DNA from: an uncultured Elusimicrobia bacterium
Lineage (GTDB): Bacteria > Elusimicrobiota > Elusimicrobia > 2-02-FULL-39-32
Direction: 5' to 3'
DNA length: 64,000 nt
NCBI GenBank assembly: GCA_964523525.1
Contig: CAZFYO010000002.1
Span: 133,038-197,037 of the forward strand
The notes beneath the pieces are model-generated. The model saw only the letters and a list, made by a program, of their open reading frames with translations, did not search any database and had not been told where the DNA came from. The translations under genes were made by a program, and so were the position numbers. This document shows positions 20,164 through 41,400 of this stretch, one piece after another. The stretch's first letter is position 1; each line of letters begins with the position of its first letter.

Positions 20164-20176
20164 AAAATCCTCATGT

Positions 20177-20836
20177 CTATATTTTTGCTATTAAAGAAAT
20201 CATGCGGTGCTCGGTTTTGTCGCGCCGCCAGGAGAAGTGGCGGTTGCCGCAGTACGTGCAATCTTCCGCCGCCTGGATGTTCGCCGCGGGAATTCCCGCT
20301 TCCTGCGCCTGGACCGCCACGGCTCGCTCCAGACTTAAAAACGTTTTTCCTTCTTTTTGGCTGAGCGCTTTGGGAAAAACTTTTGCCACGTCTTCCCCCA
20401 CTTCGTAACAACAGTCGCGGATATGGGCGCCGAACGAAACCTTCAAATCGGACGGATCGGACTTCCAGCGCTCGCGCATCAGGCTGATTCCCTTCTGCAC
20501 GATGCGGTTTTCCGCTCCGCGCCAGCCGCAGTGAAACGCGCCCACCACCTTGTTCCTATCGTCGGAGATGAGGACGGGCGCGCAATCCGCGCTGTAAATG
20601 CCAAGGACCAGCTGCTTTTGATCCGTCACCAGGCCGTCAAAACCTTCGTAGAGCCGGCGCTGGTTATTCTCGACAATGGCGATCTTGTCGCCATGGACCT
20701 GCTTGCAGGTGATTAAATTTTCAAAAGGGAGGCCCAGCTTCTGGAGCATCCCGCCGCGCACCGCGTCGTCCTTCGCGTTGCCGGAACTGGAATCGCTGGA
20801 CGCTTCGACGTACCAGCCCTTGCGCGAGATCCGCAC
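20177..20836 (-). CDS. pgeF: peptidoglycan editing factor PgeF / YfiH-family laccase-domain protein
   Basis: DUF152/YfiH motifs (CKQVHGDKIAIV; SADCAPVLI; HCGWRG). Occupies the usual position just downstream of ftsZ. The start may instead be the internal Met at about 20749. Confidence 0.75.
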   Translation of the reverse strand: MRISRKGWYVEASSDSSSGNAKDDAVRGGMLQKLGLPFENLITCKQVHGDKIAIVENNQRRLYEGFDGLVTDQKQLVLGIYSADCAPVLISDDRNKVVGAFHCGWRGAENRIVQKGISLMRERWKSDPSDLKVSFGAHIRDCCYEVGEDVAKVFPKALSQKEGKTFLSLERAVAVQAQEAGIPAANIQAAEDCTYCGNRHFSWRRDKTEHRMISLIAKI

Positions 20837-20848
20837 GGGCGGCTGAAC

Positions 20849-22033: not shown

Positions 22034-22058
22034 GCGGGTCTCCTCGCCTGGTTGTGAT

Positions 22059-23291: not shown

Positions 23292-23297
23292 GCTTTC

Positions 23298-24206: not shown

Positions 24207-24225
24207 TGAAGATCCCCCGGCAAAC

Positions 24226-25134: not shown

Positions 25135-25150
25135 TAAATTGCTTCCTTGA

Positions 25151-26080: not shown

Positions 26081-29000
26081 TCAAGCTTGTTTCGCAATCA
26101 ATTCAGCGTCGCGCCAGATATTATCGATGTCGTTGCCATCGATCAGAGGCATGGCCTGAAAAAGGTCATTGATCACAAGTATCATTCCCTGCTTCAGCAG
26201 AGAAATCTGGGGCAGCACGGAGTATCCGGATAAATTCCCCATGAGGCCGCGATGAACGATGAAGACGTGCGTGCCGAAACCTTCCCGGCGGACACCTTCC
26301 GTCAAAGCATCCAATGCATTCCAGTTGACGTTCCAACCAGAAACCTCGTGCAGCGGATCAAACAAATTCTCGCTGCCCATAAAGAGCACTCGGACGATAC
26401 CTAACTCTCTTGCATATTGGGCGATGCGGTCCTTTTGATCCTGCGATAGGCCCGGCGCAAAAAAGCCAACTGCCGGCGCGTCGCGGCTGAGCTCTTCCGG
26501 ACGCTCTAACCTAGATAAAACGTTCATTGCAAACTCCTCGGCATCGGCACTCGGCGGAATTACGACGCCGATAAAGGGACGCTTGCTTTCCGAAAGAACG
26601 GTCGACAAGCGGCCGCCGATATCGGAGAATTCAACACCATTTAGAATCGCATCCACCGCATCGCGCAGAACCTGATCTATCGCGGGCGTTTTCGCAGAAT
26701 ATTTTGATTGACCCATCCCGCGTTTGATCCGAATCTGCTTTGCGATTTCGCGGACGAGAACATCCTGATCCAAGACCTTGGAAACGCCAGGCAGGGCTGC
26801 GTGATGCAAGACGCCACCCAAATCTTCCACACCGGATTTCTCAACCGGGCCAAGGATGGCGCCGATATGCGGCTCATCGCCGCTAACCAACAGACGCGCG
26901 ACGATTTCTTCCGGGGATGCGCTCCACCTCTCAGGAATGACACTTATCAAAGAACGGACCCAGCGAATCAAATTCGTTACAGGCCGATGAATCGCGTATA
27001 TATAAAGCGTTTGAAATCCTCTGTCCGTAAGAAATTGAGCAAATGAAAGAGACCGGTTCATCTTCAGGCGTATGAACTCGTGCCGATCAAAAATTGTTTC
27101 CAGCACCTGCGTACGAAGCGAAGCCAAGTCGGGCGACTCAGGATCAGATGAAATAAGACGCACGAGCCATTCCGAAATTTCCAACGTTTGGCGGCCATTT
27201 TCATTGATCACGCGAGCCTCTGCCTTGCCGCGATGTCCAAGATATGAATTAACGCGCACCTCAACGCTGTCCCACAGGCCACCTTCAAGAAGATGATATC
27301 CCGCTAATATATGCCTCAAGCGCTCAATGGCAAATAATTTTTCTGCGGAAGTTACAGGTTCGGACGAAACACTAAATGAAATTTTGGCCTTTTCAACCCA
27401 TCTGCGCTCTCTGCCGAAAGCTATACTTTGCAAGGCGAACAAGGACGCCGTGGTGAAGGAGAAAATCACAAACGACGGGCGCAGAAAATCCGGCACCGAT
27501 AAGCCCGATACCTGCCCCGCGAGAAGAAGAGCGGACTCCAGGGTAAACAGCAGGCCAGCAGAACCCGCGACAAAGCCGAAAGCGCGGCCCGCCCTCCGGA
27601 CATGGACCAGATCGTATGGCGAACCTGATTCCGCCGCGCGCTCCATCAGCCGATCAGAGCGGTTGCGGAGCCTGTCTGCCTCGGAAAGATATGCATCGCG
27701 AACCCGGTCGATGGAGGTTTGTGACGCCTGTCGACGCAATACGCTGATCGCAGCGCGAACAGCCGCATCAAATTCTCCTGCAGCGGCGCGGGGATCGCTG
27801 GACCAGCGCTCTTGCATTCTGATATCCGCCGCCGCTAAATTCTCCCAGCGCGCCAGGGTGTCCCGGATATACAACGGCCGATCCTCCCGGACGACAGCAA
27901 TGAGCTCGTCAGTACCGATCTTGAAAATATCTTCCGGTTTTTCCAAAATCCCCTTCGCAACTGCGAGTCGGCCCTGATTCAGCATCATTCGAGCGATTTT
28001 CCTCTGAAACGGAACGATCAGGTGGTGTCCGTCTTCGCGCAGGACGATCTCCATCCGCGACAAGGCGAGGATCACTTTTAGTTCAGGAAGCTTTTCAAAT
28101 ATATGCCTCGCATTTTGCTCATATCGGCCCGTTTCTTCCGATTGAGCCAAGAGCTGTTCGAGGACATCCGGAATTCTCGCTTCGATCTCTGCCGGGGAAA
28201 TGGAATTCATAGCAAGGACTTTGATATTCCCCATGGCTTCAGTGTTCCCGGTTTCAAAATCAGGATATTTGGACTCGAAGGCCAGTAGGCGTGCCCGGCT
28301 GGCGATCAGATCATAGAGAACCGGATCCTGGCCGCGAATTTTCTCGGCATCGTAGTCCTCCCAGCCGGAAAAAAGCCGGGCCAGCAACGGTATGCCGATG
28401 GTCGCGCCGCTTTTCAACCGGCCGTGCAGGTCCATGAGATACCGCGGCGTATCATCCAAAAGCTCGATATGCTCGCGCGTTTCCTTGTATTTGTCGGACC
28501 ATCCCCGAACCGCGTTCAGGATTTCAGGCGCGCCCATCTCCAACCTTTGTGCAATAGCAGCTGCCGCATCAACCCGGTTATCATTATTCAATTCAAACGC
28601 CGCCACAGCTGAAGGCGTCCGGCGGATTCGTTCCAGCAAGGCATAAATTTCCTTATCCTTGGCCCGAGACAACTCCAGCACCCAGCCTGGCTTGATGTCG
28701 CTTCGGAATGGATTAATGCTGCCGGATGGCAAGATGTCCGACACCGCAACGTCCCTTAAGTACGGATGCAGCTCCTTATGCAGATAAACGAGCCGGGGAC
28801 GGACGAGGTTTTCATCAACGATGACATCCAGCCAGAAACCGATGTGCATCCACACAAACGCATCAATCAACGCGTCTACCATCGCATCGACGTTTGAAGA
28901 ATCTAGGGTCTCGATGGATTCCGTGAACATCGCGAACTGCTGAAATCCCCTCCACCGGGCTTCATAGAGGTCTAAATAATCCTCCAGCGACAGGCCTTCG

Positions 29001-32000
29001 AGCCCGGAGAAAAAATGATAGATGTCTGCCGGATCGTTAGGAACCACCTGATGAAATAATGAAAGGCCCTTGGGCTCTGCTTTGATTTCGCGGCGCTGCG
29101 AGACCAGACGGAACGGGCTCCGCTCACCGTACGTCCCATTGAAAAAATCCGTCAGTTTATCCCAGGCCTTGTAATAGTAATCGAGCTGGAACCAGCCAAA
29201 CCCATCTGACCGGCGGCGCCACTCCCCTTCAAAATCATCTCCAAAAACCTCGGGCCGCTTGAGCTTGCTATCGGCCCAAGACCGAAATATTTCGTGAATT
29301 TCCTGACGCCCTTTAATCACGCTAAAAATGTCGGGATCTACGTTCCATATATTCAAATCCCGCTCTTCAATCAGGATGGGCATTTCGCCGAGGTATATCC
29401 TGCGGTGGTCCGCATCCAACGTGACGACCTGTCCGTTCCATTTTTTCAGGACATCAATGGCTTCGGCAGCGCCCACGATGCAGGGGATTCCTATGGCCTG
29501 GGCATTTTGCGCTGCGTGGGACGTAACCCCGCCATCCGTGGTCACCACCGCGGCCAGTTTTGCAAACACGGCATTCCACTCGTTGTTGGTATGGTGCGTC
29601 ACAAGAATCGCCCCCGGCGTTGCATCGCGATGCTGGTCCGTTGACTCTATGATTTGCAAGCGGCCGACCACTGCCCCCGTGTTTGCGATTCGGGATGACG
29701 CTCCCAATGTAACCTGGGGAGCCGACCGGGCGGTTTCCGATTTATCATCTACAACCGATACGGAAATCGTAAACTGGCCGCCGCTTTTATTTGCAGCTTT
29801 CACTGCCTTAGGTCGGGCCTGAAGGATATAAAGTTCACCATTCTCGCCAAAACAAAATTCGATATCGAGTTGCTCCGCCCAGTCCTTGTTCAGATAGTGT
29901 CTTTGAAGGTTCCCCGATAGGAGGCTCAACCTCAAAACCTCCACGTCACTCAAACTGGGGTCATCTCCAATTATGGACTCTTCGCGAACCCCGCCGCCCC
30001 TGCCCGCCGCAATGCGCGCCCGCTTAGGCACGATCGACTTGTCGAAAATAACGTCGCCCATATATCCCGTTATCCACCGATCACTGCCATAGCTGTTCTG
30101 CTGAACGACGCCTTCCCCAAGGCCGGGCTGGGCTTCAATGACGTGGAGAGGCCACTGCGTTTCATCATGCACCGTGAATAGCACTCCTGCGGCCTTGGGA
30201 TCCACGAATTGCTGGAGAACGACCGCCATTCGCGCCTCTTTTTCCGAAAAGCCGAGTGTTTTGCGGTGAGTGACGAACTCCTTCGAATAAAGACTGGCCC
30301 AGACTTTCTTGATATCGGAAAACAGTTCTTCTTCTGTGATGATGTGCAGGAAGGATTGCGCGAGCCCCGCGGCGGAGGAGCCCTCGATATCTTCAACGTT
30401 GGCGGAACTACGCGCCGCGACATCGCGGCCCAGTTTTCGAAAAACGTCGCTCAGCCCCTTTCGGAGCCCGACAGGCATTTCCATACGGGTGATACGTGTC
30501 CTGAGTGCCGAGGCCGTTTCCTCAATGCCGTTCTCGGACGATTCGGATTCCAGTTTTTCCACCAACCTTGAGACTTCCGGATCCGCGAGAACATAGCGTT
30601 CAAACGCGGCAGTGGTCAGCACTTCGGTCTCCGGAACCTTGAAATGAAGCCCATCTCGATTCCTGTAAACTTTGGAGATATCCCGGAGACGGTGCAGATT
30701 TAACCCCTTGCCCCCCACGAGGTGCAATCTGCCGGACATGGGATGCGCGGCCGGCAAAATGTCTGTGACCTGTGACCATATATCATCGTTTCCAAAATAG
30801 GGAGCAACCAGGTCCTGGGCGAAGTCCCGGGGCCCACGCAGGAAGCGGGCGCGGACCTTGTCCCAGTTTTCGAAGCGCATCAAATCGGAATCTGCGCCGT
30901 CATAATCCGGAGCCTGGCCCGAGACACCCAGGTTATCAATCGCGCGTTTCCGGGCTCCTTGCTTGCGGGTAATGATGCGGGATATTTCATTTTCTTCCGC
31001 AGCATTCAAGACATACACCATGAGCGTGGACTCGTCGTTCGAATCCATTGGAAATACGTAAGGAATTCCCGTCCGAGCCCGAACCTCCTCAGCTGCCGAC
31101 TGAACCGGGGACCGGGTGCGTTGAGGATTGACCGAATAGAGGCTCAGGCACCGCGTAAAAGAATTGTAGTCAGCGAAGATTTTTTCGCCGCGGAATCGGG
31201 AGGAGAAATCTCTCAAAATTTCGCGAAGCATTTCTTCTTCCAATTCACTGAAGGCAAAGAAATCATAGCTGATCATCCCGGTCCGAAAAGAACCGGCGCT
31301 ACCCACCGTTTCCAGCCTGCGGAGATCAGGCGTAATGCCCACTTCTTCCTGAACCGCGCGAGCAGCGGCGGCTTCCAGGGTCTCGCCATCTTTCGGTTTT
31401 CCATTGGCGGACACTGTCCACTTGTAGGGAAACGACCGCTTGAAGGCGCCGCGTTGCTGCAAAAGCACTTTACGACGGCTGGAATCCATGACCAGAATCT
31501 GGACCGAACGGCCACTGGTGCCTTGAGTCCAGCTTCCGCCACTCAGCGCTTTGGCGAAGAGCCGGGAAACGTAGCGCAGAGATAAGAGCTTATCCCGCAT
31601 ATCCAGCGCCGAACCAAACGCCAGGTTTCTCTCCATCTGGCTCTGAATTTCCTGGCCGGCTGTTCTGGATCCGGCGAAGTCCCCTTCGCCAAAACGTTCT
31701 CGCATTTTCTTCGCGCGCTCTACCTGCCCTTCCTGCACCGCACGGCGAACATCATCCCTGAGTTTATTTTCGGGCACGGAATACAGGAACTCCGCTGCAG
31801 TGCGATCAACTACCGGAAAGGATCCTCCAGCGGAGCGCATGATTCGCCTGTCCTGCCAACTTGCGGTAAAATAATCCGAACCCTGCGGCACATAGGCAAA
31901 GACGACTCCTCCTTTAGGCACACCGCTGACCGCCATAGAAAAATTTCCATAGGCTTCAAACAGATGAAATGCGGGCTTCTGGACATTGCGCAGCATTTCA

Positions 32001-35000
32001 AACTGAAGCGCTCCCACCGAAAACAGGTAATCCGCACCATTCACTGCAGCAAAAGCTTCTCCGGAAAGGCGGCTCATGTCGGTACCCTCATGCGGCGGAC
32101 CGTTCCCAATTAGATTAAAGCGCCCCTTCTCCTGCAGTCCCCTCAGCGGCTCAAAAATCGGGTCTTCCAGTATTTCAAGGGTACTCAAATAACTGAGATC
32201 AGTCCGGTAATTCGCCCTTTTGGGAATGAAGTTGATGCTCAAATTGGGACTCTCCAGCAGCATCTCCATCGCAAGTTTTAGAACGAGGACCGATTCGCCG
32301 TTGTCATCCGGCAGCCAGGCAACCGTAACGGGGGTTTTTGCATTCAGGACGGAGTTTTCGAAATGCGAATATGCGTCAATTGCGGGGACAGTGCTATCGA
32401 AGGACGCGAGCTTTTCCATGTTTGCCACGGCGATGGCATCCGCGGTACCAGACTCGCGCCCGTCATACATTTCGTATTTTAGGATTTCAAAAACACGCGC
32501 TGAACGCAGGAGGAGTTGGCGGACGGATAATCCCGGCTCGAATCGACGCAGCATAGCCAATGCGGTCGCATTGGAAAGATCGTTGCGCTCGCGGTAGGGA
32601 TCGAAATCGGGGTCCTGGATTTTTCCAGTCGCAATGATCTCTATGATTTGCATCGTGAGCAGGCCTCGTTGCCAAGTCGTAAGGCCGGACTCCAGGGAGG
32701 AACCGTCATCCATGGGAATTTTCCAGGCCAGTTCCAGGAGTTCCAGCCCGCGGGCCGTTAAGGTTGAAAGCGCTCGATCCTTGTCCTTCCGGCGCATCAG
32801 ACCGTTGGAAATTTTCTGATCCAGCCAAAGCGAAAGATCCCTTTCGATGAGCTTGCGTCCGACGATCCTATCTTCGCTCTCTTTTTCCATCCCGGCAACG
32901 TCGCCGGCAAGGTATGCGCTTGAAACATAACCACGGCCTACAATTTGCTCGAGGTCATGATTAGCCGCGGAAGGTGGTGACCGCGGCAGAAGGGTTTCCA
33001 GAATACGCCGGCGCTTGGCGGAGATGTCACGATATTGAATGGATTCTTTCCAGCCGAGATCTTTTTTAAGGATGTCATAAAGTTCGTGAATGGCGCTTTC
33101 AGATGACTGAAACTCGTTTACCGACGGTCTCACCTGATCCGAGATTGTGCCAGAGGATCTGAACTGACTGACAAAAACAAACGCATCAAATGCAATGTGG
33201 GCTGCGATTGCGGGCAGGGGATGAACGGCATACATCAGAAAAAGTGCGGACGAGCCCCATTGCAGGCGGCTCCAGGGAGAACCGCGCACCCGTCGCGGCG
33301 CGAGCGCGATAAAATATGGAACGTGCATGGCAGCGTACAGAGAGATCACGGCGAGGAATACCGGAGGCTCCAGCCAGCCCGGAAGGAGCCAGGCGCCCAA
33401 TATGATTTCTGCAAACGTTCCCGCCGCCCCTATCGCGGCAAGATGCGCGCGATTTCTCACTCCTGCCACTTGAGCAGCCAAATACGCCATTGAATTCGCG
33501 GCCGCGACTCTCGAACTGAAAATGGCCATCCGGGCGTCGACAAAAAGTGACAGAATTCGGCTGACCCCGGTAAATCCGGCACCTGCCTCATCCACGTTCA
33601 TTTGGCCCGTATCGGGGTCCTTTGAAACTGAATACTTCATGGATCCGTTGGGGCCCGAGACGGAAACCCGGACCCGTCCGGGCCCGGCATCTTGCAGCCG
33701 GGCCGTGAAGCCATTGGCCGCTTCGCCCAGCGCCATGGACATACCGGCATCCACCTCCCGGGCGTCGAGATGAGTATCTGCCCCGTTCGCGATTTCTTCA
33801 AGGGCGAGCCGATCAATCGCAGCGGATCGTTGCGCTTCTAAAGTCCATGGCTCGATTGAGACGAAAAGTTTTTCACCGCTAAAAAGCTTTTCGATGGGGG
33901 TTTTCTCCCGGGCGAAAATGGAAAGATATTGCGCGCCGCCGAAGGTTTCAATCTTTTCGACTTTCGGTGAAAGCGTCAGCACCGCTACGCCGGATGCAGA
34001 GATATCTTTTTCGATAGCGGACGAATGAAAGCCTCCCGCGACCAGCACCGCAACGTTGCTCCCGCGCTCCTTCATCTCCCGCAGGAGCTTGAAAGACATG
34101 GCGCGATCGCGAAGAGTCGCCTCTCTGAAAAACTCCTCAAACATCGCGAGCTCCGGATCTTTGCCTGCCAGAGATTGATACGCTCTCCACTCCCCGGGTG
34201 AGAGGGAATAGTCCAGAAGCCGGCCAGTTAGTCCCGCTGCGCGGGACTGCTCCAGTAGCCTTTTCTCATCCTCGGACCGGACCAGAACCCTGTATGCGGA
34301 GGCCTCCAACGCCCCCAGTTGATCAAAAAATTTATCTGAGCGGATCCCGTCCGACAGTGCGGCGTATCGGACGTACCGGACCAACTCCGGAAATTCAGAA
34401 AACCGGACGCCGTGCTTTTTCCCTATGCTCTCCAGCCGGCCGTAAAATTCCGAATGGTCAAGCTTGCCACATCGGTAAGCAATCGCAGCGTTTGCAAGAT
34501 TCTCGGATTCCCTCCGACCGATCGAGCGCGCCAGCTGCCCAAGAAAATCGCCGCGCTGTTTTTCCACCGCTCTGAAATCTATAGAAGATTCCATGTTCAG
34601 GACAACCAAAAATTTCCGCACTTCGTCGGAGTCCTCCGCCAGAGGTGTGACTGCAGCCAGGGCCCGGACGTACTGGCCCAGCGGGATCTTTTCGCCGCGA
34701 TGAGACTGCACCACCCTGTCGAACGCGAGGAGCCGGGGATTGAACGTCTCGAGTTTCCGGCGCTCCAGTTGCAGCTGAACTCGCTTCAGCTGCCGAAGTC
34801 GCGCGGGCGCGGCCGCGAAAGAACCGAGATAGGCGCTCACGTTCGCCGCGTAGCGCTGGCGGTCGTCCACGCCGGTAAAAATAGGAGCCCTGCGCGCGGT
34901 CAGGCCGGCATGCACGGGGCCGGTAATTTTATTTTTCTTCAGAAGGAAATCAGCGACTGTAACTGTCGATTCCAGCTTACCGGATGATCTGAATTTTTCC

Positions 35001-35461
35001 AGATCCAACGGACCAAAGGCGCCCTCGAGCGCAACGAAGTCGACACCGCCCTCATTGATCAGCTGGTGAACAGATGCTGATATATTTTTTTGAGCATCCT
35101 CATTCAGGTGAATGTCCTGAATATGGATCACGACAGGCTGTCCGGCTTTCCAACCGGGAGGAACCAGAGCCCTGCGAAGGTTTGAGAATTCAAGCGGCAG
35201 CCGCGGCAAATCTCCGGCAATTCCTGACAGGTCCTCGCGCGCATTCAAATCGGCAGAACGCAACGGGCGTAGGCCCGGCATAGCCACTGAAGGAGCGGAC
35301 GGGGCGGCCGCTTCTATCCAATGATTCACGGATCTAGCCTGATTGGCCAGGAGCAATGGGGCGGTTACAAAGTTTTGCAGGAGGCACGCGGCCAGAAAGA
35401 CCGCGAAAAGTTTGCGGCAGGGGTTCTGTCGGTGGGAAGTTCCGGCTAAGCGGAGACCCAT
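26081..35461 (-). CDS. giant multidomain membrane protein 1 (3126 aa). It has a signal anchor, a paralogous N-terminal domain, a TM cluster, a possible DUF89-like domain, a NUDIX domain and a PEP-utilising dikinase-like module
   Basis: Uninterrupted 9.38-kb ORF. The ATG at 35461 overlaps the stop of giant gene 2 by 16 nt. Domains were assigned from motifs read in the translation (see the separate entries). Confidence 0.85.
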   Translation of the reverse strand: MGLRLAGTSHRQNPCRKLFAVFLAACLLQNFVTAPLLLANQARSVNHWIEAAAPSAPSVAMPGLRPLRSADLNAREDLSGIAGDLPRLPLEFSNLRRALVPPGWKAGQPVVIHIQDIHLNEDAQKNISASVHQLINEGGVDFVALEGAFGPLDLEKFRSSGKLESTVTVADFLLKKNKITGPVHAGLTARRAPIFTGVDDRQRYAANVSAYLGSFAAAPARLRQLKRVQLQLERRKLETFNPRLLAFDRVVQSHRGEKIPLGQYVRALAAVTPLAEDSDEVRKFLVVLNMESSIDFRAVEKQRGDFLGQLARSIGRRESENLANAAIAYRCGKLDHSEFYGRLESIGKKHGVRFSEFPELVRYVRYAALSDGIRSDKFFDQLGALEASAYRVLVRSEDEKRLLEQSRAAGLTGRLLDYSLSPGEWRAYQSLAGKDPELAMFEEFFREATLRDRAMSFKLLREMKERGSNVAVLVAGGFHSSAIEKDISASGVAVLTLSPKVEKIETFGGAQYLSIFAREKTPIEKLFSGEKLFVSIEPWTLEAQRSAAIDRLALEEIANGADTHLDAREVDAGMSMALGEAANGFTARLQDAGPGRVRVSVSGPNGSMKYSVSKDPDTGQMNVDEAGAGFTGVSRILSLFVDARMAIFSSRVAAANSMAYLAAQVAGVRNRAHLAAIGAAGTFAEIILGAWLLPGWLEPPVFLAVISLYAAMHVPYFIALAPRRVRGSPWSRLQWGSSALFLMYAVHPLPAIAAHIAFDAFVFVSQFRSSGTISDQVRPSVNEFQSSESAIHELYDILKKDLGWKESIQYRDISAKRRRILETLLPRSPPSAANHDLEQIVGRGYVSSAYLAGDVAGMEKESEDRIVGRKLIERDLSLWLDQKISNGLMRRKDKDRALSTLTARGLELLELAWKIPMDDGSSLESGLTTWQRGLLTMQIIEIIATGKIQDPDFDPYRERNDLSNATALAMLRRFEPGLSVRQLLLRSARVFEILKYEMYDGRESGTADAIAVANMEKLASFDSTVPAIDAYSHFENSVLNAKTPVTVAWLPDDNGESVLVLKLAMEMLLESPNLSINFIPKRANYRTDLSYLSTLEILEDPIFEPLRGLQEKGRFNLIGNGPPHEGTDMSRLSGEAFAAVNGADYLFSVGALQFEMLRNVQKPAFHLFEAYGNFSMAVSGVPKGGVVFAYVPQGSDYFTASWQDRRIMRSAGGSFPVVDRTAAEFLYSVPENKLRDDVRRAVQEGQVERAKKMRERFGEGDFAGSRTAGQEIQSQMERNLAFGSALDMRDKLLSLRYVSRLFAKALSGGSWTQGTSGRSVQILVMDSSRRKVLLQQRGAFKRSFPYKWTVSANGKPKDGETLEAAAARAVQEEVGITPDLRRLETVGSAGSFRTGMISYDFFAFSELEEEMLREILRDFSSRFRGEKIFADYNSFTRCLSLYSVNPQRTRSPVQSAAEEVRARTGIPYVFPMDSNDESTLMVYVLNAAEENEISRIITRKQGARKRAIDNLGVSGQAPDYDGADSDLMRFENWDKVRARFLRGPRDFAQDLVAPYFGNDDIWSQVTDILPAAHPMSGRLHLVGGKGLNLHRLRDISKVYRNRDGLHFKVPETEVLTTAAFERYVLADPEVSRLVEKLESESSENGIEETASALRTRITRMEMPVGLRKGLSDVFRKLGRDVAARSSANVEDIEGSSAAGLAQSFLHIITEEELFSDIKKVWASLYSKEFVTHRKTLGFSEKEARMAVVLQQFVDPKAAGVLFTVHDETQWPLHVIEAQPGLGEGVVQQNSYGSDRWITGYMGDVIFDKSIVPKRARIAAGRGGGVREESIIGDDPSLSDVEVLRLSLLSGNLQRHYLNKDWAEQLDIEFCFGENGELYILQARPKAVKAANKSGGQFTISVSVVDDKSETARSAPQVTLGASSRIANTGAVVGRLQIIESTDQHRDATPGAILVTHHTNNEWNAVFAKLAAVVTTDGGVTSHAAQNAQAIGIPCIVGAAEAIDVLKKWNGQVVTLDADHRRIYLGEMPILIEERDLNIWNVDPDIFSVIKGRQEIHEIFRSWADSKLKRPEVFGDDFEGEWRRRSDGFGWFQLDYYYKAWDKLTDFFNGTYGERSPFRLVSQRREIKAEPKGLSLFHQVVPNDPADIYHFFSGLEGLSLEDYLDLYEARWRGFQQFAMFTESIETLDSSNVDAMVDALIDAFVWMHIGFWLDVIVDENLVRPRLVYLHKELHPYLRDVAVSDILPSGSINPFRSDIKPGWVLELSRAKDKEIYALLERIRRTPSAVAAFELNNDNRVDAAAAIAQRLEMGAPEILNAVRGWSDKYKETREHIELLDDTPRYLMDLHGRLKSGATIGIPLLARLFSGWEDYDAEKIRGQDPVLYDLIASRARLLAFESKYPDFETGNTEAMGNIKVLAMNSISPAEIEARIPDVLEQLLAQSEETGRYEQNARHIFEKLPELKVILALSRMEIVLREDGHHLIVPFQRKIARMMLNQGRLAVAKGILEKPEDIFKIGTDELIAVVREDRPLYIRDTLARWENLAAADIRMQERWSSDPRAAAGEFDAAVRAAISVLRRQASQTSIDRVRDAYLSEADRLRNRSDRLMERAAESGSPYDLVHVRRAGRAFGFVAGSAGLLFTLESALLLAGQVSGLSVPDFLRPSFVIFSFTTASLFALQSIAFGRERRWVEKAKISFSVSSEPVTSAEKLFAIERLRHILAGYHLLEGGLWDSVEVRVNSYLGHRGKAEARVINENGRQTLEISEWLVRLISSDPESPDLASLRTQVLETIFDRHEFIRLKMNRSLSFAQFLTDRGFQTLYIYAIHRPVTNLIRWVRSLISVIPERWSASPEEIVARLLVSGDEPHIGAILGPVEKSGVEDLGGVLHHAALPGVSKVLDQDVLVREIAKQIRIKRGMGQSKYSAKTPAIDQVLRDAVDAILNGVEFSDIGGRLSTVLSESKRPFIGVVIPPSADAEEFAMNVLSRLERPEELSRDAPAVGFFAPGLSQDQKDRIAQYARELGIVRVLFMGSENLFDPLHEVSGWNVNWNALDALTEGVRREGFGTHVFIVHRGLMGNLSGYSVLPQISLLKQGMILVINDLFQAMPLIDGNDIDNIWRDAELIAKQA
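29380..30715 (-). other. PEP-utilising-enzyme module inside giant protein 1: ATP-grasp nucleotide-binding domain plus phosphohistidine swivel domain, with no PEP/pyruvate TIM-barrel domain
   Basis: The VGGKGLNL glycine loop sits at 30700-30717. The …DIEFCFGENGELYILQARP motif ends the ATP-grasp part. The swivel domain reads GAILVTHHTNNEW…VVTTDGGVTSHAAQNAQAIGIPCIVG, with the catalytic His codon at 29516-29518. Confidence 0.75.
31130..31530 (-). other. NUDIX hydrolase domain inside giant protein 1 (non-canonical box with RA in place of RE)
   Basis: The Nudix box is GKPKDGETLEAAAARAVQEEVGI at about 31332-31401, matching Gx5Ex7R[E→A]UxEExGU, and is preceded by a VLLQQRGAFKRSFPYKWTVSANG strand. 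Confidence 0.55.
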
Positions 35462-38400
35462 ATAATTCGGTTGGCCTTCCAGCTGTTTTCTAGCGTTGCG
35501 GGGTTCAGTGTTTCAGCGGCATTGATTCGAAGGTTGCCAGTAGCGTCATCATAGGAAATCGCGCCTCTTTCACTATCGCTGAGATTGAGCTGTTCTAAAA
35601 TGGACCGGAGCATCCTCGCCGCCTGCGGACCTCTGAGGTTGATGGTTTTGCCGACGTCCAAGATCATGGCGACCCCTTCGATGTCCCACTTTGCCGCATT
35701 TTGGGTCAGGACCTGGATAACCAGGTTTGCTTTGGAGTGATACTGAGCCGCAATGCGGCCCGCTTGAGCCATGGCGTCGGCGGGAGTGTGATAGAGGATC
35801 ACGAAATCTTCGGGAAGCCCGGTGCCTTTTGAAATTTGTCCTTTCAACTGTTCGGCTTCGACTTCGGAAAGAGAAATCTGCGAAACGTCGAACGCCATGA
35901 ACATACGGCCTCGGCTTTCGGGATCGTCCCGATCTTGAAGAAGAGCGAGATAGTGATCGGCAAGCGCCGGAATCGCGGCAGAGATCCCCGAGGGCGAGCG
36001 CTGCGGCGCGCCGCTGTCGACCAGGAGGATCCGTGTTTCATTGAGATGTGACTCCGTCACGGCGGACAGGATTCTACCTTCGATCTTAGGCATCGGCATT
36101 TGCCTGGGAGAGAGAGCCGTTGAATCACCCTGGATATTGCGGACCGTAGCTTTAGATGCGAAGCCGGACAAAGCCAAACCAACAGCAGCAGTCCAAGAAC
36201 CCGGTCCCGAAATCAATACTACCGCCTGGCGCGGTAACAAGGCGGCAAATCGAGCGTTCTGAAGGGCCCCCATCCATTGGACCTTTGAGAAATACCGGGT
36301 AAGGGCATCCCTGCTCAATAATCCCCCGACCGCAGCCGCGCCTGCGGTGAATGCGATGGTCCCTCGTCCGGTTCCAACTGAGTGAACTTCTTCAAATTTG
36401 GAAAAGAGCGCTCCCACCACTGGAAGGACCTCAAGCAGTCGCCCAGCGCCGGCGAAGGAGGAGACGACATCCAGAGCCAGTTTTTCAGGAGCAACCGCAA
36501 GTCCCGAAGCCAGTTCGCCGAGCAGCTGCTGGGCGAGCTGATTCTGCCCGCCGACTGACAAGCCATGCCAGATGTCCGGGGCACCAGCAACGCCTGCAAA
36601 ACCCATAGCGGCAGCACTCAACGACGCAAACAGAACGAGAGGTTTGAATATGGAATGCGCGCGAACCGACAAAAAGGTTGCGGCGCCCGTTACAGCCGGC
36701 GCCGATTTCATTTCTCCAGAGTCCTTGATGTTCGCAGACGCGTTGATCCGCTGATGAACAACCGCGAGTATCGCGAAGGGGACTGCGGAATTCTGCATTC
36801 CCAGAACGGGGACCAATCCAGCAGCCAATCCCGAGAGTGCCGAAACCACAAGCACGTCTCGGCTGATCAGGACTTTCCAGTTCCAGCCGGAAACGTCAAA
36901 GACGGAGGAGCCGCTCCGCCTTTCCTGAACGACGCGGATTATATGGGAACTCAAAAGAGTGGACGCGGCGGCGATACCAAAGGAATGCCCCGCGGCATCT
37001 ACACCGAGCAACATCGCAAGCCAGGCGGGTAATGCGATCAGCAAGGTTTCGGCTAGCCAGGCGATCTCACGGTACTGCATGAAGCCGAATCTCTGGCCGG
37101 GTTTGAAAATCATTCCGCCACCCTTCGCTGACTTGAACGGGTTTGGAGTCCCGATCTTTTCAAAAAACTGATCCGCATTTTCAAACTCCGTAATTGGATA
37201 GCCGATCCAGGGCTTACCGGGATCAACAAGTTCCAAATACTCCGGCGGAATTTCCGTGCCTTTGAAATCACCCGCAAAATCGTAAAGCTCTCCGCCGCGG
37301 ACCCTGTTTTCCAGGATAGTGGGAGCGTCTTTTTTGACTCGCAGCCACAGGTAAGGAATATTCCACCGTGTACTCCCTTCGTAAGGCGAGTTTTGAATCG
37401 TTCCCAAATAAAACCGCGAGTCCCAAAAAAAGATCCTGTCCGGACGTTCGCCGCCCTGCGTGTGGCGCACACTTAATCCGTGTTCCTTGATCGAATTGAA
37501 ATCTCCCTTCGACTGGTGGAAAACGTACTGGTCGAGAGAGCGTTTGCTCTCCAGGACCGGCGTCATGGACCTCAGCAGGTCCAGGCCCCGAGGATCGGCA
37601 CCGACCAGATCTCCAGCGGTTTCGATGGCTTGCAGTTTGCCCATCAATTTCGCGTGGATATTCTGAAGCCTGCTCTCCACAGCCGGGGAAGTGATTTTTT
37701 TGAAATCGGTCCGCCGCCCCTCCCTCCGATCGAACTCATCGCGGTTTTGCCTCAAAGTGGGAATGGTCCAGCCCGTGCCGTAATATATATGATCGTCGTA
37801 TGTTTCCATGTAGGCGAGAAAATACAGTGTCCTGCGGGCAGCTTCTACCTCGTATGGATCGCCATAGGTCAAGATCCGCTGAATGCTTCGGTCCATAAGC
37901 CGGCCAATAACCCGCTCTAATACCGGGAGCAAAGCCGCGGGCTGCTCCGACTGGGCGATCAGGTATTTCCGGTACAGATTGAGCAGGAGGTGCTGCGCTC
38001 CAACCGTAGGTTGGGATAGCAGAGCGAATATCTGCTCTTCCCAGGCCGTGAGATCCTCCGGCATTGCCCCTATGAACCTCAGCACGTCCGCGGCGGCCTT
38101 CTCGTCCGCCGAATATTCCGCACCGAAAGGCAGCGTCGGGACATGTTCGAAATCAGGGATAACCGCGGCCGGAGATACGGGCGCAGCGTAATCGCTTTCC
38201 CGCAGAGCCGGAACGAGGGACGGGTCCACCGCGTTTTCATATATTTTCACGTATTGTGGAACCAATTCGTTCCAGGACTTTGGCGCGGACATGGCGCGGC
38301 GCTGCATGCCGGAGAAACCCTGCGACTGCTCTCTGTACAAAGCCAGAGCCTGCGTCAGGGCTCGAACATACGCGCGCTCCTGCGCCTGCGGATCCATGCT

Positions 38401-41400
38401 CGCGGAGCCGAATTTAAAGCCAGTACTTTCGACCAGGCTCTGCGCGGGATCAATGATGGTGTCAACCAGACCTCCCACCGCGCGGGCGATCGGGATCGCG
38501 CCGTAGCGCATCGCCTGCTGCTGCGCAATGCCGCCCGGCTCAAACAGGGACGGAATAAGGAAGATATCGCTTGCGGCGAAGATGCGACGCGCCACGATCG
38601 GATCAAAGCGGTTGATGAATACGACGCTTCCGGGATAGCGGATCGCCAGCCTCTGAAAGGCCTGCTCATATTTTTTTTCATCGGCGTTGGCGGTCCCCAA
38701 AATCACCAACTGCGCGCCGCTGTCAACCGCTTCCTGTACGTGGTTCAAAATCGTCTCCATGCCCTTTTGATATGTGAGCCGCGTCACCACCGCCAGAAGG
38801 GGCTTGCTCGCATCCTCTTCCAGATAGCCATAGCGCTTGCTCGCTGGGTCATTGGAGGGGCTGGAGTACCTGGCCTGCAGGGTCATCTTGTTTCGCGCCT
38901 TTTGATTAAATTTCTCGTCCGCGTCAAAAGGACTGTAGCCATCCTCATTCAAGACCGGATCGCTCTGAGGATCCCAGCTCACTATGTCTATACCGTTCAC
39001 AATGCCGGCAAAATCTCCGTCACGTGCCCGAAGCAGCCCATCGAGGCCCGTCTCAAAGTCGCCCGAAAGGATTTCATTGCGATACGAAGGGCTGACGGTA
39101 ACCAGCTTGTCGGCATAATACAAGCCGCCCTTGATCAGGCTGATATCGCCGTAATATTCGATCCCCTCCATATTGTTGACAGAAGCTGGCAACCCCATCG
39201 CTTCAAGCTCTTCAAACCAGCCGGAGGGAAACTTTCCCTGATAATCGTGTCCGATATTGTGGATCGTGAAAACGGTCGCCGGTATCTGCTCGCCGGGTTT
39301 GGCGGTCATTTTTAGAAATGGCGAGACGAGGCCCGTAACCCAGTCGTGACTATTGACCACATCGGGATCGAGGTTCAGGACCCGGATGGCTTCAACCGCA
39401 GCCCGGGAAAAGAGCGCTGCTTCCATGAACGCCTCCCGCCGGTCAGGATGGTAACCTTGACGAAAATATTTTCCGTTGGCCAGCAGATAAACCGTGACCC
39501 CGTCGGATTCCGCCTGAAGGATCCGGAAACGGACGAAGCCGCGGGCCGTCTTAACGCTGACGATTTTTCCGGTGTCTTTCGCGCGTCGTTCCAGCGCATC
39601 ATGGTGTCCGGGCAGGACTATCGATACGTTATGACCCGCCTCGCGCATGGCCATGGGAAGCTCTTTAATGAAGTCGCCGACGCCGCCCACCTTAAAAAAT
39701 CCGCCCATTTCATATGCGACATGTACGATTCGGCCCTGACCATTCTTCAACCGCTCAACCCGCTGATGCGCGCTTTCGAAGGGGCGTTCAGCCTGCTTTG
39801 GAAATACCGCGGCATGCGCCCAATCCAAAAGCTCTTTCTGACGAATGGCTTCAGCTCCGGGGACACGCTTGGAATCGATCAAAGCATCATGAGCGTCATC
39901 ATAATCAGCGCCTGGCCTCATCAAGAACTCGCGTAGCAACAGCTCCCTTTCAACGAGAGTTTGGATAAGCCTCAGCCTCGTGGCATCCTCTTCCTTGAGG
40001 AGGGAATCAAGGATGATCTTATTAATTGAAAATATTGCCTGTCCGCTATCCTTGACCACGAACGGAGCCAGGAGGAAATTATCCGGCCCCTCGATCAGTT
40101 CCCGTCCTTCGTGAACTCTAACGTCAACGTGGAGAATCCCCAGATTCGCCATGCGTTCGCTATTCGATTCGAACAAACGCCGAATTGATTCCAATACCGT
40201 CATTTCTTCAGTACTTAGTTCTGAGGGCACAGACTGCTGAAGCCAATCCGAAATGAGATTTTCAAAAAATTGCCGGAGCTGATCCGGAAATAACGATTCG
40301 AATTCCCTGACAAACCCGATGGAACCAGCCGCCGCCAATCTTTCCTTCAGAGAACCGTCAGCATCATCAATCATGTTCATGGATCTAAAAAATCTGGACC
40401 ACGGCACAAGAGTTAGAGAATACCGCATGATGAGCAGCTGGACCAACTGCTCCAGAGTCCCGACGTGCAGCGCTCCCTGGGTGGCGCGGGGCGCAGATGG
40501 GAGAGGCGCGATGGCTCGAGGCTCCTGTATTTGCGAGCGCGCACCGAGCAAGCTGCCCTCATCCGCCATGGCTGCGGGATATAATTCCACGCGGGGACCG
40601 TTTGCAGAGGCGCGGTATCCAGCGCTATGCAAAAAGTCGAGCAACTCGGCTCGCTGTCCCGGAGAAAAGCGGCTCATATCCAGAGACCTTACGTAGTCTT
40701 CAAAACGTTTTTCTCCGACGGTCAATTCCTGAAGCCGGCCCGTATTGCCCCCCGTGCGGATTGTGGCGGCAAGCTGAAGCAGCAGTTCGGGCGCGCTGGC
40801 CTGATCCATCATCGCCGCCATTTGACGTAGCGTGCCCATCGCAGCCTTGACCGTTTCCCCCCAGCCCGCCGACACGACGGAATCGGGGCCCGGCGTCCCC
40901 TCGGCGAATTTCATGACAAAGTTGACTCGAGCTTGATCGCCCTGGAACGACCCCAAAAGGCTGGATGCATCGCCCGTTTTGAATGGACCGAAGAAAACTG
41001 CCCGGCTTCTCAGGAAATGGAGGATGTCTTTCGGCAGAGGGGCTGCGGACGAAATGGTCGCGGGAAGATTCCTTAAGTTATGGGCATATGTGGAAAGCAG
41101 AGATTCCGTATTTTTCGGATCGAAACGCCGGACGGCCGCGACAGGGCCACGTGTCTCCGACAAGCCTTGCGTGTTGGACAGGCTTGGCCTTATCACACAG
41201 TACGGTATCTGACTCCGCCTCAGCTCAGCGACGATTCCAGAGGTATGGAATCCACCCGCCACCAGAACCACCCGTCCCGCTTTCTGATTTTTCGCTAACT
41301 TTACGGCGTTTTCCGCCAGGACGACATCCCGCTGATGAGCCCGCTCAAAATATTTTTGAACATATTCGGAATGGCTTTGAGTCAACGCGATTAATTTTTT

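What the first reader, a model, noticed from the sequence alone, without database searches (positions are those of the whole stretch)
29380..30715. Dikinase-like module lacking a PEP/pyruvate domain, possibly a glucan-water-dikinase-like or Rph-like phosphotransferase
The module has the ATP-grasp domain and the His swivel domain (GGVTSHAA…IGIPCIVG) of PEP synthase/PPDK. The protein then continues into unrelated sequence with no C-terminal TIM-barrel PEP-binding domain. This two-domain arrangement is the one used by enzymes that transfer the ATP beta-phosphate to non-pyruvate acceptors, such as rifampicin phosphotransferase and the plant and algal alpha-glucan water dikinases. With a glycogen synthase in the adjacent giant protein, glucan phosphorylation is an attractive hypothesis.
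Basis: inference. Interest (0 to 1): 0.6.

Follow-up and report, generated by a model that had tools for sequence, protein, structure and literature searches.

The report
Rearranged Rph-like dikinase in giant protein
A giant membrane protein carries a complete ATP-driven phosphate-transfer enzyme: its front half resembles PEP synthase, but its pyruvate-binding part is replaced by a substrate-binding domain like that of the rifampicin-phosphorylating enzyme, placed in an order not found described, so it almost certainly phosphorylates something other than pyruvate (target unknown, possibly a sugar or glucan).

Summary
Residues 1581-2019 of the 3126-aa ORF at 26081-35461 (-) contain a PPDK_N ATP-grasp domain (E 4e-51) and a His swivel domain (E 7e-18, catalytic His1982). 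No PEP/pyruvate barrel was found in any of the four giant ORFs. The downstream sequence is not "unrelated". Residues 2021-2613 form a conserved, confidently modelled helical domain (pLDDT 85). Its only coherent structural matches are six rifampin phosphotransferase (Rph) structures. Its C-terminal half is homologous to the Rph-type acceptor-binding domain (hhalign 94%, E 1e-7; score 68 against 13.5±2.2 for shuffles). It keeps Rph's essential Arg666-Glu667 phosphotransfer dyad as R2475-E2476. The module is therefore a full three-domain swivel dikinase in the order ATP-grasp, His, acceptor domain; Rph runs ATP-grasp, acceptor, His. A Nudix-fold domain precedes it. This roughly 1300-aa unit is a rare family: 90 clusters among 1.84 billion representatives, mostly Omnitrophota, either standalone or embedded in giants. 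The acceptor is unknown. A glucan acceptor is possible: a Saganbacteria homologue sits between two GT5 starch-synthase genes, and here a GT5 giant lies directly upstream. Most other loci show no GT5, and no carbohydrate-binding module was found. I rate it a new variant of a known kind, of moderate interest.

The parts
26081..35461 (-). Giant ORF G1 (3126 aa) that carries the unit. It has an N-terminal signal/anchor and hydrophobic clusters at about aa 674-719 and aa 2630-2682, which bracket the enzymatic region.
   Evidence: Similar-length homologues P0124 (3042 aa) and P0128 (3105 aa) appear.
30752..31594 (-). Nudix-fold domain plus a helical/beta extension (aa 1290-1570). It is conserved N-terminal to the dikinase in most family members. 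In G1 the Nudix box reads G-x5-E-x7-RAVQEEVGI; it is degenerate in the family consensus.
   Evidence: Pfam NUDIX at aa 1317-1392, E 2e-12. AF2 model pLDDT 88.3. Foldseek matches IPP isomerase, GDP-mannose mannosyl hydrolase, NUDT14 and ADP-ribose pyrophosphatase. Conservation is shown.
29786..30721 (-). ATP-grasp nucleotide-binding domain (PPDK_N, aa 1581-1892), with K1585 (GGKG) and R1684 (RSSA) in the ATP site.
29405..29617 (-). Phosphohistidine swivel domain (PEP-utilizers, aa 1949-2019). The catalytic His1982 lies in TTDGGVTSHAA (nt 29516-29518).
27623..29401 (-). Acceptor-binding domain (aa 2021-2613), mostly alpha-helical with a small beta-sheet. The C-terminal half (about aa 2262-2515) is homologous to the Rph-type substrate-binding domain. 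The N-terminal half carries family-specific invariant motifs (WRRRS, FQLDYYYxAWD, WMHxGFW).
   Evidence: AF2 model pLDDT 85.4, pTM 0.84. The Foldseek top hits are six Rph-Lm entries. hhalign gives Prob 94.2%, E 1.2e-7, with a shuffle control. The N-terminal half shows no profile match. Conservation is shown.
28022..28042 (-). LREDGHH motif (aa 2474-2480). R2475, E2476 and H2479 align with Rph-Lm Arg666, Glu667 and Lys670, the residues that position the phospho-His for the second transfer.
   Evidence: The alignment chain runs through. The mutagenesis is reported in PMC4844700. Conservation across the family is shown.
38224..39732 (-). Context: a GT5 glycogen/starch-synthase domain (aa 1051-1553 of giant G2, ORF 35446-42882). 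G2 overlaps the start of G1 by 16 nt.
   Evidence: (TIGR02095 glgA, 411.6 bits, above its cut-off of 328)
47067..48704 (-). Context: phosphoglucomutase/phosphomannomutase domains I-IV (aa 852-1397 of giant G3, ORF 42912-51257).

Best explanation
Residues about 1290-2613 of giant protein G1 form a self-contained enzyme unit: a Nudix-fold domain, an ATP-grasp domain, a phosphohistidine swivel domain and a C-terminal helical acceptor-binding domain. It most likely works as a water dikinase of the Rph / small-molecule-dikinase type. ATP binds the ATP-grasp domain. His1982 attacks the beta-phosphate, the gamma-phosphate is released as Pi, and AMP leaves. The swivel domain then carries the beta-phosphate to the C-terminal domain. 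There R2475, E2476 and H2479 (equivalent to Rph Arg666, Glu667 and Lys670) position the phospho-His for transfer to a hydroxyl of a bound acceptor. The acceptor is not pyruvate. The domain order is that of PEP synthase (ATP-grasp, His, third domain), but the third domain is of the Rph type rather than the PEP/pyruvate TIM barrel. The following are shown here: the presence and conservation of all three domains and their key residues, the absence of a barrel, and the homology of the C-terminal half to the Rph-type domain. The following are inferred: actual catalysis, its direction, and the acceptor. My best guess for the acceptor is a carbohydrate-related hydroxyl compound (a sugar, polyol, sugar-nucleotide or glucan), held with low confidence.
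For: ATP-grasp and His domains were found with E 4e-51 and 7e-18, and no PF02896 was found. The ATP-site residues and the catalytic His are conserved across 15 of 16 diverse family members. The downstream 593 aa are conserved in every homologue that covers the region: 13 proteins at 26-42% identity, with invariant R, H, K, E, D, Y and W residues. The AF2 model of this region is confident (pLDDT 85.4, pTM 0.84) and helical, not a barrel. The only coherent Foldseek PDB hits are six Listeria Rph entries at probability 0.90-1.00, although the query contained no ATP-grasp or His domain. Profile-profile alignment to the middle domain of Rph-like proteins gives Prob 94.2%, E 1.2e-7 and score 68.4. 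Thirty column-shuffled controls gave 13.5±2.2 (maximum 19.2) and the reversed control gave 15.1. The alignment places R2475-E2476 on Rph-Lm R666-E667. Their Ala substitutions abolish the second phosphotransfer but not the ATP partial reaction (PMC4844700). In an exhaustive HMM search, every family member tested with the Pfam models whose sequence extends that far has PPDK_N and His directly upstream of this domain. The unit also exists as a standalone protein of about 1350-1460 aa, so it is an autonomous enzyme that has been fused into giants.
Against: There is no biochemical evidence. Foldseek E-values (1.6e-3) and TM-scores (0.25) to Rph are weak. Only the C-terminal half of the domain shows profile homology; the N-terminal half shows none. 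In more distant family branches the dyad varies: FMEDAHQ lacks the Arg and MRNDMH lacks the Glu. No model coordinates were available, so I could not check that His1982 can reach R2475. Membrane topology is uncertain, and an ATP-dependent enzyme must face the cytoplasm.
Confidence: 0.7

Rival explanations
1. It is a bacterial alpha-glucan (glycogen) water dikinase. The unit would phosphorylate the glucan made by the adjacent GT5 synthase, as plant GWD does for starch. The Nudix domain could act on ADP-glucose. This is a special case of the main explanation with a defined acceptor.
For: A GT5 glycogen-synthase domain lies in the giant directly upstream, overlapping G1 by 16 nt, and PGM/PMM lies in the next giant. 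In Saganbacteria contig JABMQY010000085.1 the standalone orthologue (39% identity over 1291 aa) sits between two same-strand GT5 genes, one of which overlaps it. A related giant is followed by a giant with PMI, PGM and NTP_transferase domains. The top structural matches of the Nudix domain include sugar-nucleotide hydrolases. GWD also uses an all-helical central domain as its presumed acceptor site (PMC13553574).
Against: No CBM45, CBM20 or other carbohydrate-binding module was detected in G1. By tblastn and a custom HMM, GT5 is found within 10 kb only at the window and L006, out of about 27 loci. None of 16 polypeptides carrying the unit contains PF08323. Standalone homologues sit next to unrelated genes: inositol-1-phosphate synthase, GT2 genes, a GH17 gene and mobile elements. 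The demonstrable homology is to small-molecule dikinases, and the domain order differs from GWD.
Confidence: 0.17
2. It is a VadK-like regulatory kinase. The module would autophosphorylate on His and pass the phosphate to a protein partner, or simply sense ATP, with the C-terminal domain serving as a protein-interaction or scaffold domain inside the giant protein.
For: A PPDK relative without a PEP/pyruvate domain works this way in M. tuberculosis (PMC13400623). Giant Omnitrophota proteins are rich in signalling domains (preprint 10.64898/2026.06.07.730766).
Against: Unlike VadK, this family always carries a large conserved third domain. That domain retains the Rph-type Arg-Glu phosphotransfer motif and many invariant polar residues, which is typical of a substrate pocket.
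Confidence: 0.08
3. It is an ordinary PEP synthase or PPDK that interconverts pyruvate and PEP, which is how PPDK_N domains in Omnitrophota giant proteins have been read in the literature.
For: The closest full-length sequence relatives of the front end are bona fide PEP synthases, and the best NCBIfam model is PpsA. West-Roberts et al. 2023 state that such domains interconvert pyruvate and PEP.
Against: No PF02896 was found in any of the four giants at E<=0.01 or in 12 family members' downstream regions at E<=10. The PpsA profile match ends at position 473 of 798. The downstream model is helical, not a TIM barrel. The downstream region gives no PDB sequence hit to PpsA or PPDK even at E<=10.
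Confidence: 0.02
4. It is a catalytically dead relic or structural spacer within a giant protein.
For: One family member (P0167) has lost the GGKG motif and the catalytic His. Giant proteins contain much sequence of unknown function.
Against: In G1 and 14 other members the ATP-site residues, the catalytic His and the acceptor-domain motifs are conserved at 20-40% overall identity. Standalone versions of the unit exist.
Confidence: 0.03

Closest known systems
Rifampin phosphotransferase (Rph; PDB 5FBS/5FBT/5FBU, 5HV1-3) and the wider small-molecule dikinase superfamily (PigC/RedH/HapC; two-component HpeHI, CreHI, phenylphosphate synthase PpsAB)
   Same: It has an ATP-grasp domain, a phosphohistidine swivel domain and a helical acceptor-binding domain. 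The Arg-Glu dyad that positions the phospho-His is conserved (R2475/E2476 = R666/E667). The presumed chemistry is ATP + acceptor-OH + H2O -> AMP + Pi + acceptor-phosphate.
   Different: The domain order is ATP-grasp, His, acceptor rather than ATP-grasp, acceptor, His. The N-terminal half of the acceptor domain shows no detectable sequence similarity, and no rifampin-binding signature was found. Lys670 is replaced by an invariant His. A Nudix-fold domain is fused upstream. The unit is often embedded in membrane-anchored giant proteins.
PEP synthase (PpsA) / pyruvate phosphate dikinase (PPDK)
   Same: The front end is colinear (ATP-grasp, linker, His domain), with a single-stretch match to PpsA profile positions 18-473. 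The GGxTSHAA catalytic loop is present. The overall order is ATP-grasp, His, third domain.
   Different: The third domain is not the PEP/pyruvate TIM barrel (PF02896) but an Rph-type helical domain, so pyruvate/PEP chemistry is not expected.
Plant/algal alpha-glucan water dikinase (GWD1; central domain PDB 9HA9)
   Same: It uses a swivel-His dikinase mechanism with a non-pyruvate acceptor and has an all-helical putative acceptor domain. It is genomically associated with alpha-glucan synthesis, here and in one Saganbacteria locus.
   Different: GWD has two N-terminal CBM45 modules and the order central domain, His, ATP-grasp. No CBM was found here. No sequence similarity to the GWD central domain was detected; I could not test structural similarity, and I could not confirm that 9HA9 was in the libraries searched.
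M. tuberculosis VadK (Rv1127c)
   Same: It is a PPDK/PpsA-derived protein that has lost the PEP/pyruvate domain while keeping the ATP-grasp and catalytic His domains in the same order.
   Different: VadK ends after the His domain and acts as an autophosphorylating regulator. The present family always has a large conserved acceptor domain after the His domain.
PPDK_N and NUDIX domains catalogued in Omnitrophota giant proteins ('Archaeovorins'; West-Roberts et al. 2023 preprint)
   Same: They are the same kind of object: PPDK_N and NUDIX are listed among the 20 most frequent domains of these giants.
   Different: That work read them as pyruvate/PEP-interconverting PPDK domains. It did not describe the missing barrel, the conserved C-terminal domain or the Nudix-dikinase unit.

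Membership tests
PEP synthase / PPDK | N-terminal ATP-grasp nucleotide-binding domain (PF01326) | tested here: met
   PPDK_N at aa 1581-1892, E 3.8e-51
PEP synthase / PPDK | Central swivel domain with the catalytic His in GGxTSHAA | tested here: met
   PF00391 at aa 1949-2019, E 6.8e-18. The motif GGVTSHAA carries His1982
PEP synthase / PPDK | C-terminal PEP/pyruvate-binding TIM barrel (PF02896) | tested here: not met
   No PF02896 hit. The PpsA profile match stops at 473/798. The downstream AF2 model is helical. There is no PDB sequence hit
Rph / small-molecule dikinase superfamily | ATP-grasp plus swivel His domains homologous to Rph | tested here: met
   Match to 5fbs with E 7.7e-39 in two stretches. 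NF041857 scores 178 bits, below its equivalog cut-off of 999
Rph / small-molecule dikinase superfamily | Helical acceptor-binding domain homologous to the RIF-binding domain | tested here: met
   Met for the C-terminal half only: hhalign Prob 94.2%, E 1.2e-7, against shuffled scores of 13.5±2.2. The Foldseek top hits are six Rph entries. The N-terminal half gives no signal
Rph / small-molecule dikinase superfamily | Arg-Glu(-Lys) block that positions the phospho-His (Rph-Lm R666/E667/K670) | tested here: met
   R2475/E2476/H2479 align to it. R and E are conserved in the close clade and vary in distant clades
Rph / small-molecule dikinase superfamily | Domain order ATP-grasp, acceptor, His, with the catalytic His near the C-terminus | tested here: not met
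   The His domain (1949-2019) precedes the acceptor domain (2021-2613). The same order holds in all ten additional family members scanned with Pfam, where the sequence is complete enough to tell
Rph (rifamycin-inactivating equivalog) | Rifampin-binding residues / equivalog-level score | tested here: not met
   NF041857 scores 178 bits against a cut-off of 999, and NF000283 scores 119 against 1700. There is no similarity in the N-terminal half of the acceptor domain
alpha-glucan water dikinase (GWD/PWD) | N-terminal starch-binding modules (CBM45 or CBM20) | tested here: not met
   Pfam finds no CBM family in G1 at E<=0.01
alpha-glucan water dikinase (GWD/PWD) | Order central domain, His domain, C-terminal ATP-binding domain | tested here: not met
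   The order here is ATP-grasp, His, helical domain. The GWD architecture is taken from PMC13553574
alpha-glucan water dikinase (GWD/PWD) | Transfer of the ATP beta-phosphate to glucan C6/C3 | not testable with these tools
   Only contextual evidence is available: GT5 lies adjacent here and in L006 but not at other loci
VadK-type truncated PPDK | Protein ends after the His domain (no third domain) | tested here: not met
   A conserved 593-aa domain follows the His domain
Nudix hydrolase | Nudix fold | tested here: met
   Pfam NUDIX E 2e-12. The AF2 model has pLDDT 88, and Foldseek matches IDI, Gmm, NUDT14 and ADPRase at probability 1.0
Nudix hydrolase | Intact Nudix box GX5EX7REUXEEXGU | tested here: inconclusive
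   G1 reads G-x5-E-x7-RAVQEEVGI, with the first Glu after Arg replaced by Ala. In the family only the final E and G are invariant

The most novel reading that the evidence does not exclude
This family is the first bacterial alpha-glucan (or other GT5-product) water dikinase. It would have arisen independently of plant GWD by joining a PpsA-type front end to an Rph-type acceptor domain and a Nudix (ADP-/NDP-sugar) module. It would act together with GT5 synthases to phosphorylate a storage or surface glucan in Omnitrophota, Saganbacteria and related uncultured lineages.
Probability: 0.15. Interest if true: 0.8.

Novelty: new variant of a known kind. Interest (0 to 1): 0.55.

Why it matters
PPDK_N domains are among the most frequent recognisable domains in the giant proteins of Omnitrophota, and they have been read as pyruvate/PEP-interconverting enzymes. 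This analysis indicates that the family containing the copy studied here cannot do that chemistry. It is instead a distinct, rare family of swivel-His dikinases. The family joins a PEP-synthase-like front end to an Rph-type acceptor domain in a domain order I did not find described, and a Nudix-fold domain is fused upstream. That changes how these organisms' metabolism should be reconstructed. It adds an architecture to the small-molecule dikinase superfamily, showing that the swivel mechanism tolerates either placement of the acceptor domain relative to the His domain. It also supplies a compact, expressible target, the roughly 1450-aa standalone orthologue flanked by two GT5 genes, for testing whether bacteria possess a dedicated glucan or sugar dikinase.

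Tried and rejected
- **Downstream region against known families.** Sequence searches of aa 2021-2700 against PDB found nothing relevant, as a single sequence at E<=10 and as a 12-sequence profile. Pfam at E<=10 gave only scattered single-member chance hits.
- **Weak single-sequence comparison.** hhalign of the family profile against one Rph-like sequence gave only Prob 24%. It became convincing only with a 13-sequence Rph-like alignment.
- **N-terminal half of the acceptor domain.** It shows no profile similarity to the N-terminal part of the Rph-like middle domain.
- **Conserved gene partner.** Standalone homologues lie next to a tRNA methyltransferase and GT2 genes, unknown genes, a GH17 gene, inositol-1-phosphate synthase and a GT28 gene, GT2 genes and mobile elements. 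No universal partner emerged.
- **GT5 association.** tblastn and a custom GT5 HMM over all 27 loci fetched by then found GT5 only in the window and L006.
- **Source organism.** It could not be named. G1 is in the protein collection from an NCBI contig of 264,502 bp, but without a name. An exact gene look-up failed. The FtsZ look-up returned only an unnamed SRA assembly contig. The GTDB scan found no locus closer than 43% identity.
- **Rejected readings.** Ordinary PpsA/PPDK is rejected because there is no barrel. GWD membership is rejected because there is no CBM and the order is different. A VadK-type truncation is rejected because a third domain is present.
Full report
**1. What is in the sequence**

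The window carries four consecutive giant ORFs on the minus strand:
- G4, 51221-63886, 4221 aa
- G3, 42912-51257, 2781 aa
- G2, 35446-42882, 2478 aa
- G1, 26081-35461, 3126 aa

The finding (29380-30715) maps to G1 residues about 1583-2027. Pfam finds three domains in G1: NUDIX at aa 1317-1392 (E 2e-12), PPDK_N at aa 1581-1892 (E 3.8e-51) and the PEP-utilizers mobile domain at aa 1949-2019 (E 6.8e-18). No PEP-utilizers_C barrel appears in G1 or in the other three giants.

The best NCBIfam model is PEP synthase PRK06464. It aligns in a single stretch to profile positions 18-473 of 798, at 234.7 bits against a cut-off of 598. The match therefore ends exactly where the PEP/pyruvate domain should begin. 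Sequence searches of solved structures hit Listeria rifampin phosphotransferase (5fbs, E 7.7e-39, two stretches) and PEP synthases (8a8e, 2ols).

The catalytic loop reads TTDGGVTSHAA, with the His at residue 1982. The ATP-site residues equivalent to Rph Lys22 and Arg117 are K1585 and R1684.

**2. The sequence after the His domain is the third domain of the enzyme**

A homology search with aa 1560-2640 found 13 proteins that cover 77-97% of the query at 27-42% identity. One of them is labelled Candidatus Omnitrophica. All 13 carry PF01326 and PF00391 and lack PF02896. The next-best hits are canonical PEP synthases that cover only the front 42%.

The downstream 593 aa align well across these proteins and contain many invariant polar and aromatic residues. 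The conserved motifs include WRRRS, FQLDYYYxAWDRLT, WMHFGFWLD, LSRxKDKEIY, WSxRYKxTxEDL, SDTxxYL and LREDGHHLIVPxQR.

An AlphaFold2 model of aa 2021-2640, built with this alignment, is confident (mean pLDDT 85.4, pTM 0.84). It is almost entirely alpha-helical with a small beta-sheet, so it is not a TIM barrel.

Neither the single sequence nor the family profile hits anything relevant in PDB sequences or Pfam.

**3. The third domain is of the Rph type**

Foldseek of the model against the PDB returned the Listeria Rph entries as its only coherent family. 5fbu, 5hv3, 5fbt, 5hv2 and 5hv1 took ranks 1-5 and 5fbs rank 7. Probabilities were 0.90-1.00 and alignments spanned up to 494 columns. E-values were weak (1.6e-3) and TM about 0.25. 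The query contained no ATP-grasp or His domain, so the match must be to Rph's RIF-binding domain.

I tested this independently with profiles.
- I took the middle domain of an Rph-like protein, P0022. Its flanks match Rph-Lm at E 1.9e-100.
- I collected its relatives and ran hhalign against the family profile A3.
- The result was Prob 94.2%, E 1.2e-7 and score 68.4 over 185 columns, covering domain residues 242-495.
- Thirty column-shuffled templates scored 13.5±2.2 (maximum 19.2), and the reversed template scored 15.1.

The alignment puts the G1 motif LREDGHH (aa 2474-2480) on P0022 MREDTHF. The phmmer alignment places that motif on Rph-Lm Y-R666-E667-Y-P-K670. Stogios et al. 2016 (PMC4844700) showed that Arg666 and Glu667 contact the rifampin phosphate and the catalytic His825. 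Their R666A and E667A variants lose rifampin phosphorylation but keep the ATP-side partial reaction. R2475, E2476 and H2479 are invariant or nearly invariant in the close family.

In more distant branches the motif reads FMEDAHQ or MR(N/K)DMH. Asp2477 is nearly invariant, and His2479 and Gln2486 are invariant.

The N-terminal half of the domain (aa 2021-2260) shows no profile similarity to the corresponding Rph-like region. This agrees with the observation of Stogios et al. that the substrate-specific parts diverge fastest.

**4. Architecture**

The unit is a complete three-domain swivel dikinase, but in the order ATP-grasp, His, acceptor domain.
- Rph, PigC/RedH and relatives run ATP-grasp, acceptor, His, with the His near the C-terminus (PMC4844700; PMC12167813).
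- GWD runs CBM45s, central domain, His, ATP-binding domain (PMC13553574).
- PpsA and PPDK share the present order, but their third domain is a TIM barrel.

The family therefore looks like a PpsA-type front end joined to an Rph-type back end. I found no paper describing this arrangement: one full-text search returned nothing, which is a limited check.

**5. The family**

An exhaustive profile search of 1.84 billion representative proteins with the acceptor domain found only 90 clusters at E<=1e-3, of which 64 were at E<=1e-30. G1 itself was among them as P0121.

In full-length hits the match begins several hundred residues from the N-terminus. Eight of ten further members scanned with Pfam, including weak ones such as P0190, P0200 and P0201, have PPDK_N and the His domain directly upstream. 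One of the other two (P0173) keeps the His domain only, and the remaining one (P0145, 571 aa), like the short fragment P0203, had no Pfam match.

Of 16 long members, 15 carry PPDK_N and His, and 5 pass the Pfam NUDIX model. The alignment consensus shows a Nudix-like region upstream in most of them. Other domains in the same polypeptides vary: HD, radical SAM, deaminase, GT4, histidine phosphatase, methyltransferases and DUF218. None of the 16 has GT5.

One member, P0167, has lost the GGKG motif and the catalytic His.

In GTDB species genomes the family occurs in MAGs labelled Omnitrophota (6 of 15 loci), FCPU426, Saganbacteria, Elusimicrobia, Planctomycetales/Planctomycetia, Phycisphaerae, Competibacteraceae and Methylococcaceae. 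The unit occurs standalone at about 1130-1460 aa, and inside ORFs of 2200 to more than 7200 aa.

**6. The Nudix domain**

The model of aa 1290-1580 has pLDDT 88.3. It matches IPP isomerase (TM up to 0.77 on the target), GDP-mannose mannosyl hydrolase, NUDT14 (UDP-glucose pyrophosphatase) and ADP-ribose pyrophosphatases.

In G1 the Nudix box reads G-x5-E-x7-RAVQEEVGI. In the family as a whole only the last Glu and Gly of the box are invariant. Hydrolase activity is therefore uncertain.

**7. Context and the glucan hypothesis**

In favour:
- G2 carries a GT5 glycogen/starch-synthase domain (TIGR02095, 411.6 bits, above its cut-off). G2 overlaps the G1 start by 16 nt. G3 carries PGM/PMM domains.
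- In Saganbacteria contig JABMQY010000085.1, the standalone orthologue (1459 aa, 39% identical over 1291 aa, all motifs present) lies between two same-strand GT5 genes. The upstream one overlaps it and has the canonical KSGGL motif.
- A related 3105-aa giant is followed by a giant with PMI, PGM and NTP_transferase domains.

Against:
- tblastn and a custom GT5 HMM find GT5 only at these two of the 27 loci held.
- Neighbours of standalone homologues are heterogeneous, although glycosyltransferases, a GH17 gene and inositol-1-phosphate synthase recur loosely.
- No carbohydrate-binding module is detectable in G1.
- The demonstrable homology is to small-molecule dikinases.

I therefore treat "glucan or other carbohydrate acceptor" as a plausible but unproven special case. 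The literature consulted names no bacterial glucan dikinase and treats it as open whether bacterial glycogen is phosphorylated at all (PMC13011383).

**8. Relation to the literature**

West-Roberts et al. (bioRxiv 10.1101/2023.11.21.568195) list PPDK_N and NUDIX among the 20 most frequent domains of Omnitrophota giant proteins. [quoted passage not shown] For the family analysed here, that reading is not supported.

A 2026 preprint groups starch synthase, GT1 and PGM as a "sugar metabolism" module in such giants, but does not mention PPDK_N.

**9. Verdict**

- Observation: confirmed.
- Interpretation: partly supported. The Rph-like mechanism holds. The claims of "unrelated downstream sequence" and "same arrangement as Rph/GWD" do not hold. 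Glucan phosphorylation remains open.
- Most likely function: a water dikinase that moves the ATP beta-phosphate via His1982 to a non-pyruvate, probably carbohydrate-related, acceptor bound in the C-terminal Rph-type domain. I hold the mechanism with confidence of about 0.7 and the acceptor with low confidence.
- Novelty: a new variant of a known kind.

**10. Limits**

- There is no biochemistry.
- I had no model coordinates.
- Only one structural library was usable.
- The Foldseek scores to Rph are weak.
- Topology was inferred only from a crude hydropathy scan.
- The source organism could not be named.

Noticed in passing
window 26081-63886 (-) and 15919-26032 (-): Four tandem giant ORFs (4221, 2781, 2478 and 3126 aa) lie directly upstream of murB, ddl, an unassigned 302-aa ORF at the position where ftsQ usually lies, ftsA and ftsZ. 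An aromatic amino-acid block follows (pheA, an aminotransferase, DAHP synthase, prephenate dehydrogenase). The giant array therefore sits inside or next to the division/cell-wall (dcw) cluster.
   Followed up: partly
window 51221-63886 (-): G4 (4221 aa) has no Pfam hit at E<=0.01. A crude hydropathy scan finds roughly 20 hydrophobic segments in clusters at aa ~600-790, 1916-2510, 3222-3247 and 3878-3966.
   Followed up: no
window 42912-51257 (-), aa 1632-1703 of G3: Besides PGM/PMM domains I-IV, G3 gives a weak NCBIfam hit (E 4e-4, far below the cut-off) to nicotinate-nucleotide adenylyltransferase. This may indicate a nucleotidyltransferase-like segment.
   Followed up: no
window 26001-47999 vs 1-26000: GC content is lower in most of the giant-gene region (0.52-0.57) than in the housekeeping region (0.57-0.62). 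There is a local rise to 0.61 at 48001-52000, around the G4/G3 junction.
   Followed up: no
L006 6016-13515 (Saganbacteria JABMQY010000085.1): This is a three-gene same-strand cluster: GT5 (KSGGL), the Nudix-dikinase gene (1459 aa), then GT5 (KSGGM). The first junction overlaps. hisG lies upstream, and an acyltransferase and an AMP-binding enzyme lie downstream on the opposite strand.
   Followed up: partly
L011 8573-17851 ('Planctomycetales' MAG CAZTQK010000015.1): Two tandem paralogues of the dikinase family (1128 and 1436 aa) are followed by a radical SAM/SPASM protein.
   Followed up: no
P0167 (3332 aa), alignment A4: This family member keeps the acceptor domain, but its GGKG ATP-site motif and catalytic His loop are lost. 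It is probably a pseudo-dikinase copy.
   Followed up: no
P0004 and P0007 (C-terminal ~250 aa after the acceptor domain): These two homologues have a conserved extra C-terminal domain beginning '...DADVLLVCGNSDL...'. Separately, one member of the 16-protein set hits DUF218. The two extra domains may be the same kind, but this was not checked.
   Followed up: no
L015 8370-11656 (Competibacteraceae JAXMFU010000004.1): The homologue in this gammaproteobacterial MAG is split over three overlapping or adjacent ORFs (591, 247 and 318 aa). This suggests frameshifts, from either a pseudogene or assembly errors.
   Followed up: no
L029/L030 (P0126 locus): A standalone family member is divergently adjacent to myo-inositol-1-phosphate synthase and an Omp85 protein, with a GT28/UDPGT glycosyltransferase nearby. 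The same arrangement appears on two independent contigs.
   Followed up: no
window 31595-33120 (-), G1 aa ~780-1289: About 500 residues between the first hydrophobic cluster and the Nudix domain have no Pfam hit. Their function is unknown.
   Followed up: no
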